Origin: Sphingobacteriales bacterium
GTDB lineage: Bacteria > Bacteroidota > Bacteroidia > Chitinophagales > UBA2359
DNA: 64,000 nucleotides
Assembly: GCA_016711295.1 (NCBI GenBank)
Contig: JADJTE010000009.1
Span: 56,919-120,918 of the forward strand
Direction of reading: 5' to 3'
Shown here: piece by piece, positions 38,871 to 43,021 of the stretch
Numbering within the stretch: position 1 is the stretch's first letter
Layout of the letters: the number at the start of each line of letters is the position of its first letter
Position numbers and translations under genes: made by a program
The notes under the pieces: generated by a model
Seen by the model: the letters and a program-made list of their open reading frames with translations, nothing else
Told to the model about the DNA's origin: nothing
The model's database searches: none

Positions 38871-38940
38871 ATCATTTAATACCGAAAACTGCCCTTATTT
38901 CATACAATACATTCAAAAATAAATTTGTTATTTTAAATAA

Positions 38941-39426
38941 GTGTTGCAAGTAAAAATATTTACCATACCCATTACCGATGATGGTCGATTTACAGACGAG
39001 TTGAACAAATTTTTGCGTTCGCACAAAATTTTGGAGGTACAACAGCAACTAAGCACCCATGACAACGGTGCGTTTTGGTGTTTTTGTATCAGATACTTGC
39101 CCCATACCTTGACCCATATCGAGGCAGGGCGGAGCGGCAAAATCGACTACCGCGAAACGCTGAACGAGGCAGCATTCAAAAAATTTTCGCGTTTTCGCGA
39201 AATCCGAAAACAGCTGGCTGCCGAAGACGGCGTGCCCGCCTATGCCGTATTTACGGACGAAGAGTTGGCAAACCTATCTCAGCTTGCTGCGCTCGACCTC
39301 AAGGGGCTTAAAAGCATAAAGGGCATCGGCGATAAAAAAGCCGACCGCTACGGCGCAAAGATGCTCAACATATACCACCAAACCTTATTGTCGGCATCGC
39401 CCGACGATGATTCGGTACAGCCATGA
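38941..39426 (+). CDS. DGR accessory protein with C-terminal HRDC domain
   Basis: This is a 161-aa ORF with a GTG start. The C-terminal half, FKKFSRFREIRKQLAAEDGVPAYAVFTDEELANLSQ...LKSIKGIGDKKADRYGAKML, matches the RecQ/RNase D HRDC pattern. Its stop overlaps the RT start (ATGA). Confidence 0.8.
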   Translation: MLQVKIFTIPITDDGRFTDELNKFLRSHKILEVQQQLSTHDNGAFWCFCIRYLPHTLTHIEAGRSGKIDYRETLNEAAFKKFSRFREIRKQLAAEDGVPAYAVFTDEELANLSQLAALDLKGLKSIKGIGDKKADRYGAKMLNIYHQTLLSASPDDDSVQP

Positions 39427-40418
39427 AACGAGCCGGTTTTTTAGTGGGGCAAATTGCCGATATGAACAATTTGTATCTGGCATTTTGGAAAGCCAAACGC
39501 GGCAAAAGTACGCGCGAAGGAGTGCTGAACTACCAGACTGACCTGTTGCCCAACCTGCAATCACTGAGTGCCGAGATAATGAACGGCACTTTGCAACTTG
39601 GAAATTATCATTATTTCACGGTTTACGAACCCAAAGAACGCAAAATTTGTGCCGCCTCGTTCAAAGAGCGCGTGTTGCACCATGCCTTGATGAACGTATG
39701 TCACCCCTATTTCGAGCGGCGGCAAATTTTTGACAGCTATGCCAGCCGTCCCCAAAAAGGCATACACGCCGCGCTACGACGCGCGCAACAATTTGGCCGC
39801 CGATACGAATGGTATCTGAAATTGGATGTCCGGCATTTTTTTGACAGCATCGACCACGATATCGTCAAACAACAGCTATCGAGGCTATTCAAAGATACCC
39901 AATTGCTCGATATCTGGCACCGAATATTGGATAGCTACGAAGTCCAGCCCGGCAAAGGCGTGCCCATCGGCAACCTAAGCAGCCAATACATATCCAATCA
40001 TTACCTATCAGGCATAGACCGATATGCCTACCAAGTGGCCGGCGCACAAGGCTATGTACGCTACATGGACGATATGATACTGTGGCATAACGACAAAAAC
40101 GCCTTGCTATCGGCTCTGTCACTGATTGAGGGCTACCTGCACGAACGCCTGAAACTACGGCTCAAACCCGCCATAGTGGGACGAACGGCACAAGGACTGC
40201 CGTTTTTGGGCTTTGTCGTTCGTCGTTTCGACCTAGGGCTGCAACGAGCTGGAAAGCAACGCTACTACAAAAAATTGAAACGGCTTTGTTGCTGCTTGAA
40301 ACACCAACAACTAAGCCCCATTGATTTTCAACGCCGTGTGCAATGCCTTGCCTCCTTTGTTCGGCATGCTCGTTCGCTAAAATTTCGGCAAAAAACCGTT
40401 CGGAGGCTGCGTTGCTAA
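39423..40418 (+). CDS. DGR-type reverse transcriptase
   Basis: This is a 331-aa ORF. It has the catalytic YVRYMDDMILW and the DGR-diagnostic [ILV]GxxxSQ motif (PIGNLSSQ). There is no maturase or endonuclease domain. A TR/VR pair lies adjacent. Confidence 0.9.
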   Translation: MKRAGFLVGQIADMNNLYLAFWKAKRGKSTREGVLNYQTDLLPNLQSLSAEIMNGTLQLGNYHYFTVYEPKERKICAASFKERVLHHALMNVCHPYFERRQIFDSYASRPQKGIHAALRRAQQFGRRYEWYLKLDVRHFFDSIDHDIVKQQLSRLFKDTQLLDIWHRILDSYEVQPGKGVPIGNLSSQYISNHYLSGIDRYAYQVAGAQGYVRYMDDMILWHNDKNALLSALSLIEGYLHERLKLRLKPAIVGRTAQGLPFLGFVVRRFDLGLQRAGKQRYYKKLKRLCCCLKHQQLSPIDFQRRVQCLASFVRHARSLKFRQKTVRRLRC

Positions 40419-40523
40419 CCCTTAAAAAAAGTTGCCGCACCCACCAAAAAAGCCCCCAAAAGTTGCATCTATTGTTCCAGCGCACCAGCTTTCTTTGAGG
40501 ATGGGGCTATACAACAAACTCAA

Positions 40524-40585
40524 GAAAAAAACAAGCCCGGCTTTCAAACCACGCTATCCGGCAGGGCTTACTAACGGGGCTTGTT
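40524..40585 (-). terminator. Rho-independent terminator-like hairpin downstream of TR (minus strand)
   Basis: The minus strand reads aacaagccc...(about 34-nt structured loop)...gggcttgtt followed by a T7 run (plus-strand A-run 40525-40531). It lies about 95-150 nt 3' of the TR end. Confidence 0.5.
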
Positions 40586-40676
40586 CCATCAAAAAAAACA
40601 TTTCGCCCTCGCTTGAAAGCACAAGGGCAGGAAAACATCGCTGGACACAGCGGGACATCCATCCGTTTGCTTTGTG

Positions 40677-40798
40677 CTGGAAGGCAGAGCCAGCCGAAAA
40701 CCGTAGTTGTTGTTGCGGTTAGCGGGCGTGTTGTTGTTGCGGTTAGCCATCCGGCAGTTGACGGCGTTGTTGTTCCACGAGCCGCCGCGCAACACACG
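40677..40798 (-). repeat. DGR template repeat (TR), 122 nt
   Basis: It aligns with VR 41049-41170. The minus strand encodes (in frame with the VR) [39 protein letters not shown], with 12 AAC codons. The ORFs called here (40589-40795, 40507-40806) are TR artefacts. Confidence 0.88.
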
Positions 40799-40898
40799 CG
40801 GTGCAAAGGCCTTATGCGATATTACCCAATCGAAAAAACGATTTTTATATTAAAAAATATACAATATGTATTTTTTGAAAAAATTTTTTGCCTACAGG

Positions 40899-40906
40899 CA
40901 AAGCTA
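40899..40906 (-). promoter_or_regulatory. candidate -7 box (TAGCTTTG on minus strand) upstream of TR
   Basis: The plus strand reads caaagcta. It matches TAnnTTTG about 100 nt 5' of the TR in minus orientation and overlaps a small hairpin (ttgcc-tgt-aggcaa). Confidence 0.3.
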
Positions 40907-40926
40907 TCTAACAGCCCAACAGCCTA

Positions 40927-41001
40927 ACTTTTCGAACCATTGCAGCCCACTTGCAGCCGCTCCGCTTGGCTGCCACGTCGGGCTGCAATAGCTCGAAAAG
41001 T
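40927..41001 (-). other. long inverted repeat (hairpin/cruciform) 3' of the VR
   Basis: The arms are acttttcgaaccattgcagccc (40927-40948) and gggctgcaatagctcgaaaagt (40980-41001), complementary at 19 of 22 positions. An inner gcagcc/ggctgc stem is also present. It lies 48-122 nt beyond the VR end. Confidence 0.7.
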
Positions 41002-41041
41002 ATTCTTCTTTTGCACAAAGCAAACAGACGGATGAACCCAA

Positions 41042-43021
41042 CTATGCCCTGGAAGGCAGAGCCAGCCGAAAACCGCAGTCGGTGAAGTGGTCGGCGGGCG
41101 CGTCGGTGTCGCGGCGAGCCAAACGGCAGCGGACGGCGAGGTTGCCCCACGAGCCGCCGCGCAACACACGGTAATTGCCCGATTGTGGACCGTGCGGGTT
41201 GGCTTGGGCTTCGGCTTTGTAGGAACCATACCAGTCTTGGCACCACTCCCATACATTGCCGCTCATGTCGTACAAGCCCAATTCGTTGGGTTTTTTCAGC
41301 CCCACGATTTGTGTTGAGCCGCCGCTGTTGACCGAGAAATGGGCTACATCTCCCAGTTCGTCGCTGCCGGCATATTTGTAGCCCTTGCTTTTTTGTCCGC
41401 CGCGGGCGCCATATTCCCATTCGGCTTCGGTGAGCAGGCGGTAGCCCGCGGGCAGCCCTTTTTCGACTGTCTGGGCGTTTAGTTTGCGGCAAAACTCTTG
41501 GGCATTGTCCCAGCTGACGTTGTCTACAGGCAGGCGGTTGCTGCCCCCAAAATGGCTGGGGTTACTGCCCATGACGGCGTAGTATTGGGCTTGGGTCACG
41601 GGGTATCTGCTGATATAAAAGCCCGATAGCGTGACCTCGTGTACGGGTTTTTCGCTGTCGCAGGCTTCGTCGTCGGTGCCGCCCATCCGGAAGGTGCCGC
41701 CTTCTACCCATACCATGTCGAGCGGAGTGCCATTTATATCTGCCACAAAATCGGCATCTTTGACCGGGGCTTCGGGTTCTGAGGTGGGTTCAGGACTATA
41801 GTCGTAGTTTTCGAACGTGATGGTGTGGGTGTGTGCATCGGTTTGGCGGGTGCGGTAGCTTTCTTCGTAGTCCAGCTGGTGTTGCTGCTCAATGAGCGTG
41901 AGTATATCACTGACCAAAAATAGGTCATTGAAGTATCGTTTTCTGCCCTGAAGCTGCTTGTCGGTTTCGTATACGTCGTCTTTAGTGGTGTTTGTTTTGT
42001 GCGTAACGTCTGTTTTGGCTTTGCCATCAAGTGCTCCCCAAAACGCCTTGACATCGGCATCTACGTTGCTATGGTGGTCGGTGTCGTGGCTATAGTGGTG
42101 TTCGTTTTTGGTTTTGTCCACTTGAAGCTCGATTACATCGGGTTCGTAGTCTTCTTTGCTCAACTTCTCTTTGGCAATATAAGCTTGGGAACTTTGCAGC
42201 AAAACCTCTGACTCCTTGTCTATGATGTTCATAAATTTTTCTACCAAGCCACTGAGGAGTTTGTTCGATACATCAGGCCGGTCTATCACTTGCTTGACGG
42301 CAATACTCCAGCCATCTTTTGCCAGCATTAATCGAACATCTTTGCGCTGTACCATTTTGCCTGGTGCCTCGCCTTTCAGAGAATCAGAATATTTAGTGCC
42401 CGCCACTTGTTTTGCCGTAATGGTGGTATAGTTGGTCTCGAAGGTGACTATTTGGGCATCGTATTGGCACTTGACGACAATACCCTCGGCGTTTTTCAGC
42501 ACAAAGTCCGCGTCGTCTTTGCTCATGAGCAGCGTCACGATGGCTTGTTGGTGCCCTGCGGTGCTGTCGAGTTGGTTCTGCGTGCTGCTAATGGATAGGG
42601 GAAACTCCTCGCCGTTGCAGGTAAAGTTCGTAAATTGTAGGTTATAGACCGTTTGGGCTTGGAGGCGCGTGGTGCCAAGTTGGTCATTGTCTTGGGTACT
42701 GGCAGCCAACAAGTTTTTTATTGCGCGGCTATTGAACGCTTCGTCGTTGAGGACGATATACACTTTGACGAGATATTGGTCGGGCTTGCGGGTTTTGGTC
42801 ATGGCGATTTTAAACCCGCCCTTGCCGTCGTGGGCAGGCAAGAAGAGGGGCAGATACTCGTATAGGCGGATGGTGTCGTCAGATTGTCCGCTTTTGGCAA
42901 CTACCTTGTTGATGGGGTGCGCTGGTGGTAGCGGCTTGCCGCCGTTGTAGCACATCGGGCTCAGTAGGATTACGTCGAGGGTTTTGGGCAAGTCGGTGGT
43001 TGTAATAAGTTTATTGGACAT
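41042..43021 (-). CDS. DGR target (variable) protein: unassigned ~440-aa N-terminal region + C-terminal FGE-sulfatase/C-type-lectin-fold domain carrying the VR
   Basis: This is a 659-aa ORF. The C-terminal ~210 aa, MVWVEGGTFRMGG...HEVTLSGFYISRYPVTQAQY...WEWCQDWY...[38 protein letters not shown], match the FGE-like fold used by many DGR variable proteins. The N-terminus MSNKLITTTDLPKT has no signal peptide. Confidence 0.88.
   Translation of the reverse strand: MSNKLITTTDLPKTLDVILLSPMCYNGGKPLPPAHPINKVVAKSGQSDDTIRLYEYLPLFLPAHDGKGGFKIAMTKTRKPDQYLVKVYIVLNDEAFNSRAIKNLLAASTQDNDQLGTTRLQAQTVYNLQFTNFTCNGEEFPLSISSTQNQLDSTAGHQQAIVTLLMSKDDADFVLKNAEGIVVKCQYDAQIVTFETNYTTITAKQVAGTKYSDSLKGEAPGKMVQRKDVRLMLAKDGWSIAVKQVIDRPDVSNKLLSGLVEKFMNIIDKESEVLLQSSQAYIAKEKLSKEDYEPDVIELQVDKTKNEHHYSHDTDHHSNVDADVKAFWGALDGKAKTDVTHKTNTTKDDVYETDKQLQGRKRYFNDLFLVSDILTLIEQQHQLDYEESYRTRQTDAHTHTITFENYDYSPEPTSEPEAPVKDADFVADINGTPLDMVWVEGGTFRMGGTDDEACDSEKPVHEVTLSGFYISRYPVTQAQYYAVMGSNPSHFGGSNRLPVDNVSWDNAQEFCRKLNAQTVEKGLPAGYRLLTEAEWEYGARGGQKSKGYKYAGSDELGDVAHFSVNSGGSTQIVGLKKPNELGLYDMSGNVWEWCQDWYGSYKAEAQANPHGPQSGNYRVLRGGSWGNLAVRCRLARRDTDAPADHFTDCGFRLALPSRA
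41049..41170 (-). repeat. DGR variable repeat (VR), 122 nt
   Basis: There are 22 mismatches to the TR, all within 41076-41146. Nineteen are at TR-adenine positions on the coding strand. The 27-nt and 24-nt flanks are identical. Confidence 0.88.

What the first reader, a model, noticed from the sequence alone, without database searches (positions are those of the whole stretch)
40419..41170. Atypical DGR geometry: TR is antisense to the RT and sits just 3' of the target gene, with its own putative promoter and terminator
The TR adenines are on the minus strand, the same strand as the target gene, while the accessory and RT genes are on the plus strand and converge on it. On the minus strand the order is target gene with VR, then the inverted repeat (41001-40927), then a candidate TAGCTTTG -7 box (40906-40899). 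Next come an AT-rich leader, the TR (40798-40677), a spacer of about 95 nt, and a hairpin plus T7 terminator (40585-40524). The TR RNA therefore cannot be co-transcribed with the RT as in the canonical avd-TR-RT layout. It would be either a stand-alone RNA of about 370 nt or a 3' extension of the target mRNA. The tail between the TR and the T-run (about 150 nt) is similar in size to the spacer (Sp) region that primes cDNA synthesis in the Bordetella phage DGR.
Basis: partly seen in the sequence, partly recalled or inferred. Interest (0 to 1): 0.6.

Follow-up and report, generated by a model that had tools for sequence, protein, structure and literature searches.

The report
Active DGR with template convergent to RT
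This is a working protein-diversifying retroelement in a Saprospiraceae bacterium whose template-RNA gene lies on the strand opposite its reverse transcriptase; that layout is rare but already described, so the finding is a well-documented new example and not a new kind of system.

Summary
HRDC (38941-39426) and RT (39423-40418) lie on the + strand. The target gene with its VR, a long hairpin, the TR and a hairpin plus T7 lie on the - strand and converge on the RT.

The element is active in this layout. Other assemblies carry the same arrangement with three VR alleles, and 22 of 23 variable positions are TR adenines.

None of 168 other DGRs that I could score has the TR antisense to its RT. 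These were 108 from this HRDC/Bacteroidota clade and 60 distant phage DGRs. [quoted passage not shown]

The tail after the TR is not just a terminator. It belongs to a conserved template RNA with covarying helices:
- a duplex that clamps the TR;
- a stem-loop directly after the TR;

A covariance model built without this genome hits only 40677-40526 on the - strand.

The proposed -7 box overlaps the target gene's own terminator, so the transcription start is unresolved.

The stem-loop after the TR recurs as its reverse complement directly after the VR. This scan had already noted that pairing, here and in another genome.

The parts
38941..39426 (+). HRDC-domain accessory gene (161 aa); its end overlaps the RT start
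   Evidence: Pfam HRDC E 1.9e-14. An ORF of at least 100 aa ends at the RT start in 61 of 70 relatives, and 8 of 8 tested match Pfam HRDC.
39423..40418 (+). DGR reverse transcriptase (331 aa)
   Evidence: RVT_1 E 4e-18. The clade-invariant PIGNLxSQY motif is present. The identical protein occurs on 14 contigs. The nearest homologues are 50-54% identical and come from Saprospiraceae/Bacteroidota.
40525..40585 (-). Terminal stem of the template RNA, with internal UUAGUAAG...GAAAG motifs, followed by U7. This is the likely 3' end and terminator of the DGR RNA.
   Evidence: Helix 4 of alignment A3: 95.4% of cells paired, 9 of 10 pairs with changes on both sides. Covered by covariance-model hit 40677-40526. 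Also present in the single-sequence fold.
40604..40629 (-). Internal Sp hairpin (P2), followed by GAAA and a T8 run at 40598-40591
   Evidence: Helix 3 of A3: 83% paired, 5 of 5 pairs with compensatory changes. Flagged as terminator-like.
40630..40641 (-). 3' strand (GCGAUGUUUUCC) of the long-range duplex that brackets the TR
   Evidence: It pairs with 40827-40816. The same duplex in 45 elements is 92.1% paired, with 9 of 11 pairs compensatory.
40643..40677 (-). Stem-loop SL1 directly 3' of the TR. It ends in GUCC, the local version of the conserved GAAC, whose C is invariant. The 22 nt at 40677-40656 are 91% complementary to 41013-41034; the pairing continues more weakly over the rest of SL1.
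   Evidence: Helices 1 and 2 of A3. The window's GCACA/UGU-GUCC is a compensatory variant of the consensus GCUCA/UGAAC. Inverted repeat I3. Cognate against non-cognate complementarity score 20.0 against 9.2.
40678..40811 (-). Template repeat. The A-to-N part runs 40798-40678. Homology with relatives' TR starts extends it to about 40811.
   Evidence: and the nhmmer alignment.
40816..40827 (-). 5' strand (GGGUAAUAUCGC) of the TR-bracketing duplex. This sets the minimal 5' limit of the functional RNA.
40828..40886 (-). AT-rich leader between the target terminator and the template RNA. An alternative promoter could lie here.
   Evidence: Sequence. No sigma-70-type match. No other TANNTTTG match on this strand.
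40877..40906 (-). TAGCTTTG (40906-40899) overlapping the hairpin TTTGCCTGTAGGCAAA (40902-40887), followed by AAATTTTTT. This is the target-gene terminator by position and possibly also a -7 box.
   Evidence: In relatives the terminator-like hairpin ends a median of 145 nt after the VR; in the window it ends at 155 nt.
40927..41001 (-). Long hairpin 3' of the VR, with an inner hairpin whose loop reads AAGCGGAGC
   Evidence: I4. Relatives show long hairpins with similar loop motifs at the same place. This is an analogue of the BPP-1 hairpin/cruciform (PMC3240598).
41013..41048 (-). Element X: the reverse complement of SL1, starting directly after the last shared CAG of VR and TR. The strong part is 41034-41013.
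41049..41170 (-). Variable repeat at the 3' end of the target gene
   Evidence: Three alleles occur among the assemblies, and 22 of 23 variable positions are TR adenines.
41042..43021 (-). Target gene, 659 aa, with the FGE-sulfatase/C-type-lectin-fold domain at residues 435-654
   Evidence: Pfam PF03781 E 8e-53.

Best explanation
This is a functional HRDC-type diversity-generating retroelement that has been rearranged into two convergent units.

Unit 1 (+ strand) encodes the HRDC protein and the RT.

Unit 2 (- strand) is the target gene, followed by a self-contained template-RNA gene of at least about 300 nt (40827 to 40525). In 5' to 3' order the RNA holds:
- the 5' clamp strand;
- the TR;
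- stem-loop SL1;
- the conserved GAAC-type motif;
- the 3' clamp strand;
- hairpin P2;
- the terminal stem and a U-run.

The RNA is transcribed from the minus strand, independently of the RT mRNA. The RT and HRDC proteins bind it in trans.

By analogy with the Bordetella phage DGR, cDNA synthesis is cis-primed from the region just after SL1 and copies the TR with errors at adenines. The RNA-primer/cDNA chimera is then collinear with the bottom strand of the target (SL1, then IMH, then VR). It can therefore anneal to the VR and to the adjacent element X and replace the old VR.

Shown: the layout, the conservation and covariation of the RNA, the SL1/X mirror, and natural VR diversification.

Inferred: trans assembly, the priming site, the integration route, and how the RNA is transcribed. 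For transcription, an own promoter and read-through of the weak target terminator are about equally likely.
For: Strand logic:
- Mismatches sit at adenines of the minus-strand TR.

Activity:
- Three VR alleles occur on otherwise 99-99.8% identical contigs that all carry the convergent layout, and 22 of 23 variable sites are TR adenines.

The RNA gene is complete and belongs to the clade's family:
- A covariance model built from 30 relatives, without this genome, hits only 40677-40526 on the - strand at 48.3 bits, E 6.6e-10. Nothing is found on the + strand.
- Over 60 sequences 89.8% of cells are paired, and 24 of 27 pairs show changes on both sides. The slid controls give 30-47% paired.
- The TR-bracketing duplex is 92.1% paired, with 9 of 11 pairs compensatory.
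- The single-sequence fold of the window recovers the same helices.

Modularity:
- A profile of the canonical RT-end/TR-start junction splits in the window. The RT part matches + strand 40323-40395. The RNA-start part matches - strand 40839-40795.

SL1/X mirror:
- Cognate complementarity averages 20.0 against 9.2 for non-cognate pairs.
- The junction is sharp, directly after the shared CAG.

Literature:
- The RNA primer linked to the cDNA was proposed to pair with the VR IMH and to be processed like an Okazaki fragment (PMC5703328).
- Cis-priming, a clamp ('cPRT Stop') duplex and a stem-loop directly after the TR are described for BPP-1 (10.1101/2023.10.23.563531).
- The TR RNA of Trichodesmium is a stand-alone ncRNA with its own start site (PMC4143802).
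Against: - There are no transcript data for either strand.
- No convincing promoter was found. TAGCTTTG lacks a -33 TTTG and overlaps a terminator hairpin.
- A T8 run follows hairpin P2 inside the Sp region and might terminate part of the transcripts early.
- The window deviates from the nearly invariant GAAC (it has GUCC), although the change is compensated in helix 1.
- This assembly's TR carries 4 substitutions not yet copied into its VR. In this particular strain no homing event covering those sites has been fixed since they arose.
- The priming site and the role of HRDC are inferred from an Avd-type element.
Confidence: 0.8

Rival explanations
1. The template RNA has its own promoter at or near TAGCTTTG (40906-40899). 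It starts inside the terminator hairpin and gives a stand-alone RNA of about 370 nt. It is a sub-variant of the main explanation, not a contradiction of it.
For: - This is the only TANNTTTG on this strand between the VR and the TR, and the motif is 1.5-fold enriched in the window.
- A start about 7 nt downstream would lack the 5' arm of the hairpin, so such transcripts would escape that terminator.
- The Trichodesmium TR RNA has its own start site.
- Some relatives carry an exact TANNTTTG 7-9 nt before the RNA's 5' clamp strand.
Against: - A single 8-mer match has roughly a 6% chance expectation in this interval.
- There is no -33 TTTG.
- The box coincides with a structure that in relatives is simply the target terminator.
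- It lies 72 nt upstream of the first conserved RNA element.
Confidence: 0.35
2. The template RNA is a 3' extension of the target mRNA, made by read-through of the weak terminator at 40902-40877. It may be processed afterwards.
For: - The terminator is weak: a 6-bp stem with 3 G-C pairs, and AAA between the stem and the T-run.
- In relatives L055 and L120 the TR also follows a VR on the same strand, and no terminator-like hairpin lies between them.
Against: - A terminator-like element is present here.
- Coupling template supply to target expression is not the pattern in the 102 of 108 clade relatives whose TR lies within 170 nt downstream of the RT stop on the RT's strand.
Confidence: 0.35
3. 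The adjacent RT no longer serves this TR. Either the genome's second DGR RT on contig C7 (50% identical) supplies the activity, or the element is a decaying relic.
For: - A second complete DGR with its own RNA is in the genome.
- Both RNAs match the same family model.
- This assembly's TR substitutions are not reflected in its VR.
Against: - The adjacent HRDC and RT ORFs are intact. The RT protein is identical on 14 contigs.
- VR alleles differ among near-identical genomes that carry this layout.
- SL1 and the clamp duplex differ in sequence between the two elements, which suggests each RNA matches its own element.
Confidence: 0.1
4. The convergent layout is a mis-assembly, or an invertible segment caught in one state. 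In the second case the 22-nt inverted repeat 40656-40677/41013-41034 would act as a recombination site.
For: An inverted repeat does flank the hairpin-leader-TR segment.
Against: - Three independent contigs span the whole unit in the same orientation, and four more reach the TR or the VR.
- The inverted repeat is a clade-wide feature. Its arms lie about 1.7 kb apart in the canonical same-strand elements.
- Flipping it would separate the TR from its Sp region.
- No inverted repeats lie at the ends of the HRDC-RT block.
Confidence: 0.02

Closest known systems
'Inverted' DGRs of Schillinger et al. 2012 (DiGReF Group 4: Shewanella baltica OS155, Vibrio sp. RC586, Photobacterium angustum S14), and the statement of Wu et al. 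2018 that TR and RT can lie on different strands
   Same: The RT is on one strand and the TR, VR and target gene are on the other. All other DGR hallmarks are kept. The conclusion is also the same: RT mRNA and template RNA need not form one transcript (PMC3521204; PMC5758913).
   Different: The host phylum differs (Bacteroidota/Saprospiraceae) and the accessory gene is HRDC. The origin appears independent, because all 108 scorable relatives of this RT clade have the TR on the RT's strand. Here the layout also comes with direct evidence of natural activity and a defined template-RNA structure.
Bordetella phage BPP-1 DGR (mtd-avd-TR-brt) and its DGR RNA (TR plus 140-nt Sp)
   Same: - A-specific mutagenesis.
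- VR at the 3' end of a C-type-lectin-fold target.
- A hairpin downstream of the VR.
- A structured RNA of about 150 nt 3' of the TR.
- A stem-loop directly after the TR, and a duplex pairing sequences upstream and downstream of the TR.
- The RNA next to the priming site is complementary to the VR flank, as Naorem et al. 2017 proposed for IMH.
   Different: - The accessory protein is HRDC instead of Avd.
- In the clade the TR lies after the RT, not before it. Here it is convergent with the RT.
- The complementarity between the RNA after the TR and the DNA after the VR spans a whole stem-loop of 22-35 nt instead of a few IMH positions.
- The VR hairpin is much longer (22-nt arms) and lies further from the VR.
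- The priming nucleotide has not been determined.
HRDC-type DGRs (Architecture C of Wu et al. 2018; Treponema denticola, cyanobacteria) and the Trichodesmium TR ncRNA
   Same: An HRDC accessory gene is present. In Trichodesmium the template RNA is a separate, abundant 265-nt ncRNA with its own start site, downstream of the RT (PMC4143802).
   Different: In Trichodesmium the TR lies downstream of the RT and was not described as antisense to it. Wu et al. had only 14 HRDC DGRs, in 11 layouts. The large Bacteroidota clade seen here (more than 500 RT-homologue loci in each of the genome and metagenome collections) and its RNA structure are not described in the papers I could read.

Membership tests
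Diversity-generating retroelement (DGR) | Reverse transcriptase of the DGR clade | tested here: met
   RVT_1 E 4e-18. The PIGNLxSQY motif is invariant in the clade alignment, window included. More than 5000 homologues were found, and the relatives with scorable repeats are all flanked by TR/VR pairs.
Diversity-generating retroelement (DGR) | TR/VR repeat pair whose differences fall at TR adenines | tested here: met
   21 of 25 mismatches fall at adenines against this assembly's TR. The figure is 20 of 21 against the TR of six other assemblies.
Diversity-generating retroelement (DGR) | VR at the 3' end of a target ORF with a variable-ligand-binding fold | tested here: met
   FGE-sulfatase/C-type-lectin domain, E 8e-53, residues 435-654 of 659.
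Diversity-generating retroelement (DGR) | Ongoing or recent diversification | tested here: met
   Three VR alleles occur on near-identical contigs, and 22 of 23 variable sites are TR adenines.
Diversity-generating retroelement (DGR) | Template RNA transcribed and reverse-transcribed | not testable with these tools
There is only indirect support, from the conserved RNA structure and the VR alleles.
Inverted DGR architecture (Schillinger 2012 Group 4; noted by Wu 2018) | RT on one strand; TR, VR and target on the other | tested here: met
   The same layout is found in independent assemblies.
Inverted DGR architecture (Schillinger 2012 Group 4; noted by Wu 2018) | Membership of the same RT lineage as the Shewanella/Vibrio/Photobacterium elements | not tested
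   Those RTs were not fetched. All 108 scorable nearest relatives are Bacteroidota-type HRDC elements with the canonical orientation. I therefore infer an independent origin.
HRDC-type DGR (Architecture C, Wu 2018) | HRDC-domain accessory gene in the cassette | tested here: met
   Pfam HRDC E 1.9e-14. The relatives carry it too.
BPP-1-like DGR RNA (Handa et al.) | Stem-loop directly 3' of the TR, and a duplex between sequences upstream and downstream of the TR | tested here: met
   Covariation counts, and the fold of the window. Equivalence to the Avd-binding stem-loop and the cPRT Stop is by position only.
BPP-1-like DGR RNA (Handa et al.) | Template:primer duplex with a priming adenosine in Sp | tested here: inconclusive
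   Helix 1 (GCUCA/UGAAC) covaries; the window carries GCACA/UGU-GUCC. The inverted homology to the VR flank ends at the GAAC motif. The primed nucleotide cannot be read from sequence.

The most novel reading that the evidence does not exclude
In this large HRDC-type clade the template RNA may be an autonomous gene. Its first stem-loop would serve both as the cis-primer and as a guide. After priming, the RNA stem-loop joined to the cDNA would reproduce the bottom strand of the target (SL1, IMH, VR). That would explain why every VR is followed by the covarying reverse complement of SL1.

The window's natural split, with the RNA gene convergent to HRDC-RT yet still diversifying, would then be in-vivo evidence for two things. 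First, RT and HRDC load the RNA in trans. Second, target choice is written in the RNA flank. Read-through of the RT mRNA, which has no visible terminator, could additionally produce antisense RNA that damps template supply.
Probability: 0.4. Interest if true: 0.6.

Novelty: new member of a known kind. Interest (0 to 1): 0.35.

Why it matters
The element is a natural experiment. An Avd-less, HRDC-type DGR keeps diversifying its target although the template RNA cannot be part of the RT transcript. The RT-RNA complex therefore assembles in trans.

It also delimits a compact module of about 300 nt, the template RNA with its clamp and both stem-loops. That module, together with a flank of about 35 nt after the VR, seems to be all that has to accompany a target. 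This is useful for anyone who wants to reconstitute or engineer an HRDC-type DGR.

The geometry itself does not change current understanding, because it was described in 2012 and 2018.

Tried and rejected
- Invertible switch or inversion scar at the 22-nt inverted repeat 40656-40677/41013-41034. Rejected: the repeat is a clade-wide feature of canonical elements, and every assembly that spans the segment shows one orientation.
- Known RNA family. Rfam gives nothing. The only hit is a sub-threshold MIR439 match on the long hairpin: 27 bits against a gathering score of 90.
- Sigma-70-type promoter in the leader. None was found.
- A clade-wide internal Bacteroidota promoter just upstream of the template RNA. 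Only 10 of 93 relatives have an exact TANNTTTG within 32 nt, and my anchoring of the RNA start in that script was imperfect. The result is suggestive for a subclade only.
- Inverted repeats at the ends of the HRDC-RT block, as a trace of the rearrangement. None is convincing.
- A remnant TR or Sp on the + strand after the RT. None: the covariance model finds only the minus-strand copy.
- Nucleotide-exact priming site from the SL1/X junction. An ungapped 10-nt match was too strict because of small indels. Among the clean cases the junction falls on the first or second A of GAAC in 13 of 20. This is indicative, not decisive.
Full report
**What is there**

Window 38941-43021 holds a complete diversity-generating retroelement.
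- On the + strand an HRDC-domain ORF (38941-39426) overlaps the start of a reverse transcriptase (39423-40418).
- On the - strand a 659-aa gene (43021-41042) ends in an FGE-sulfatase/C-type-lectin-fold domain.
- Its last 120-130 nt (VR, 41170-41049) are repeated 372 nt downstream as the TR (40798-40670): 129 nt, 81% identical.
- Of the 25 mismatches, 21 are at adenines of the minus-strand TR.

The template strand is therefore the minus strand. The RT and the template converge, with 106 nt between the RT stop (40418) and the T-run that ends the template unit (40525).

**The layout is real and the element is active**

The identical RT protein lies on 14 public contigs. Three of them span HRDC through the target gene with the same convergent arrangement and 99.8% identity: two NCBI MAGs and one Logan assembly. 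Four more reach the TR or the VR.

Two contigs carry different VRs. There are three VR alleles in all, and 22 of the 23 variable positions are TR adenines, although the TR has only 32 adenines in 129 nt. These alleles sit on almost identical backbones that all have the convergent layout. The simplest reading is that diversification went on after the rearrangement.

The four non-adenine TR/VR mismatches in the window are substitutions private to this assembly's TR. Six other assemblies share a TR that matches the VR at those sites.

**How unusual is the geometry?**

The organism is a Saprospiraceae-like member of Bacteroidota, judged from the source names on the nearest RT homologues, which are 50-54% identical. 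I fetched the 80 best RT relatives from each of three collections and scored each locus for TR/VR pairs on both strands.

| Collection | Loci with a scorable TR/VR pair | TR antisense to RT |
|---|---|---|
| Species-representative genomes | 68 | 0 |
| Metagenomes | 40 | 0 |
| Viral contigs (30-38% identical RTs, a distant outgroup) | 60 | 0 |

- In the clade the standard order is target-VR, HRDC, RT, TR, all on one strand. The TR starts 8-170 nt after the RT stop in 102 of the 108 scorable clade loci.
- In the phage outgroup the TR precedes the RT.
- An ORF of at least 100 aa ends at the RT start in 61 of 70 relatives, and 8 of 8 tested match Pfam HRDC.

So the window is an outlier, 0 of 168. 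But the arrangement is not new.
- Schillinger et al. 2012 described 'inverted DGRs', with the RT on one strand and the TR, VR and target on the other. They drew the same conclusion about separate transcription (PMC3521204).
- Wu et al. [quoted passage not shown]
- A stand-alone TR ncRNA with its own start site is documented in Trichodesmium (PMC4143802).

**The tail is a conserved template RNA, not merely a terminator**

I aligned the region after the TR from 60 elements. It shows conserved blocks: a GGAU-looped hairpin, CUGAACAG, a hairpin followed by CAAA, and a terminal stem enclosing UAGUAG...GAAAG, followed by a U-run.

For the RNAalifold structure, the pair counts were as follows:
- 89.8% of cells are paired, against 30-47% when the partners are slid.
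- 24 of 27 pairs show changes on both sides.

A second, long-range helix joins a motif just upstream of the TR (window GGGUAAUAUCGC, 40827-40816) to the segment right after the GAAC motif (GCGAUGUUUUCC, 40641-40630). In 45 elements it is 92.1% paired, with 9 of 11 pairs compensatory. The single-sequence fold of the window recovers it.

A covariance model built from 30 relatives, excluding this genome, hits the window once, at 40677-40526 on the minus strand. The hit is full length, 48.3 bits, E 6.6e-10, and nothing is found on the plus strand. In the whole genome the only other hit is the RNA of the second, canonical DGR on contig C7.

By position these elements resemble parts of the BPP-1 RNA: the stem-loop directly after the TR, the 'cPRT Stop' duplex that pairs sequences on both sides of the TR, and the 3' stem-loop (10.1101/2023.10.23.563531). 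That survey covered Avd-type DGRs only. The equivalence is an inference.

**The rearrangement cut between the two modules**

I built a profile of the canonical junction (RT 3' end, RNA start, TR start) from 87 relatives. In the window it splits.
- Its RT part matches + strand 40323-40395 (E 3e-08).
- Its RNA-start part matches - strand 40839-40795. This match is weak (E 0.015) but agrees with the covariation evidence.

The template-RNA gene thus behaves as a separable unit.

A few relatives have the TR next to a VR instead of next to the RT (L120, L055, L052). An L120-like order (target-VR, TR, HRDC, RT) followed by one inversion of the HRDC-RT block would give the window's layout. I found no inverted repeats at the ends of that block, so the route remains conjecture.

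**How is the RNA transcribed?**

This is the weak point. TAGCTTTG (40906-40899) fits the Bacteroidota -7 consensus. However, TANNTTTG is only 1.5-fold enriched in the window (98 observed against 64 expected), and there is no -33 TTTG.

The box overlaps the 5' arm of a hairpin plus T-run (40902-40877) that ends 155 nt after the VR. In relatives, 63 of 108 have a terminator-like hairpin plus T-run at a median of 145 nt after the VR. By position this structure is therefore the target gene's terminator.

Both readings can hold together. A start about 7 nt after the box would fall in the hairpin loop, and such transcripts would escape the terminator. Alternatively, the weak terminator (6-bp stem, AAA before the T-run) is read through. 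The two relatives whose TR follows a VR on the same strand (L055, L120) have no terminator between them.

I rate own promoter and read-through as about equally likely.

On the plus strand no terminator is visible after the RT. RT transcripts may therefore run antisense through the template gene. The consequences are unknown.

**The mirror between the template flank and the target flank**

The 22 nt right after the TR (40677-40656) are 91% complementary to the 22 nt shortly after the VR (41013-41034).

The same relation holds in nearly all relatives, with different sequences. The mean local complementarity score is 20.0 for cognate pairs and 9.2 for non-cognate pairs. It spans 30-35 nt.

On the VR side it begins at the first nucleotide after the last shared CAG. 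On the TR side it ends at the conserved CUGA/GAAC. In other words, the whole stem-loop SL1 is present in reverse complement after each VR.

Suppose cDNA synthesis is cis-primed at the end of SL1, as in BPP-1, where Sp A56 primes on TR G117. The RNA-primer/cDNA chimera would then read SL1-IMH-TR(complement), which is collinear with the bottom strand of the target. Naorem et al. 2017 proposed this idea for BPP-1: the cDNA-linked RNA primer pairs with the VR IMH and is then processed like an Okazaki fragment (PMC5703328). Here the complementarity is far longer.

The window adds a three-way compensatory case. GCUCA becomes GCACA, its Sp partner UGAAC becomes UGU-GUCC, and the end of X changes from TGAGC to TGTGC.

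Another agent of this scan described it for the clade in another genome (e1-4684014). I found it independently and confirm it. It is not part of the finding scored here.

**Verdict**

It is unproven on the promoter, and it is not novel as a geometry.

The element is a new, independently arisen and demonstrably active member of the known class of 'inverted' DGRs, in the HRDC/Bacteroidota clade.

Its main value is as a natural demonstration that the template-RNA gene is an autonomous module, and as a well-delimited starting point for reconstitution.

Noticed in passing
window 40716, 40721, 40750, 40751 (TR): This assembly's TR differs at four non-adenine sites from the TR shared by six other assemblies, while its VR still matches the others. 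Two of the changes turn CCGTTTGG into CCGGATGG. This creates GCCGGATGGC, the same hairpin motif as the consensus SL1 of relatives. The cause could be chance, a strain variant or an assembly consensus effect; I could not tell which.
   Followed up: partly
G000 contig C7:47985-49985 (locus L031 7985-9985): The same genome holds a second HRDC-type DGR (RT 50% identical) in the canonical one-strand order VR-HRDC-RT-TR, with its own template RNA (52.5 bits with model R1). Cross-use of RTs between the two elements is not excluded.
   Followed up: partly
window 40591-40629 (- strand): Inside the Sp region, hairpin P2 is followed by GAAAUG and a run of eight U. This looks like an intrinsic terminator about 65 nt before the conserved terminal stem. 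Most relatives have an A-rich stretch there instead. It might yield a truncated RNA.
   Followed up: no
window 38920-38927 (+ strand): TAAATTTG, a match to the Bacteroidota -7 consensus, ends 13 nt before the HRDC start codon. It is a candidate promoter for the HRDC-RT unit.
   Followed up: no
window 40419-40930 (+ strand): No terminator-like site follows the RT on the + strand before the template gene. The terminal stem of the template RNA is preceded by an A-run and not followed by a T-run on that strand. RT transcripts could therefore run antisense across Sp and the TR.
   Followed up: no
loci L092, L101, L105, L152, L086 (RT 3' ends): A subset of relatives has an exact TANNTTTG 7-9 nt upstream of the 5' clamp strand of the template RNA, inside the RT's last codons. 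In those elements the RNA may have its own promoter even when it follows the RT.
   Followed up: partly
locus L052 8794-9462: In a Spirosomataceae MAG the TR lies 366 nt after a second VR and 2.3 kb from the RT. The sequence in between starts like the N-terminus of an accessory ORF. This may be a cassette that lost its HRDC-RT by deletion, which would be another route to a detached template gene.
   Followed up: no
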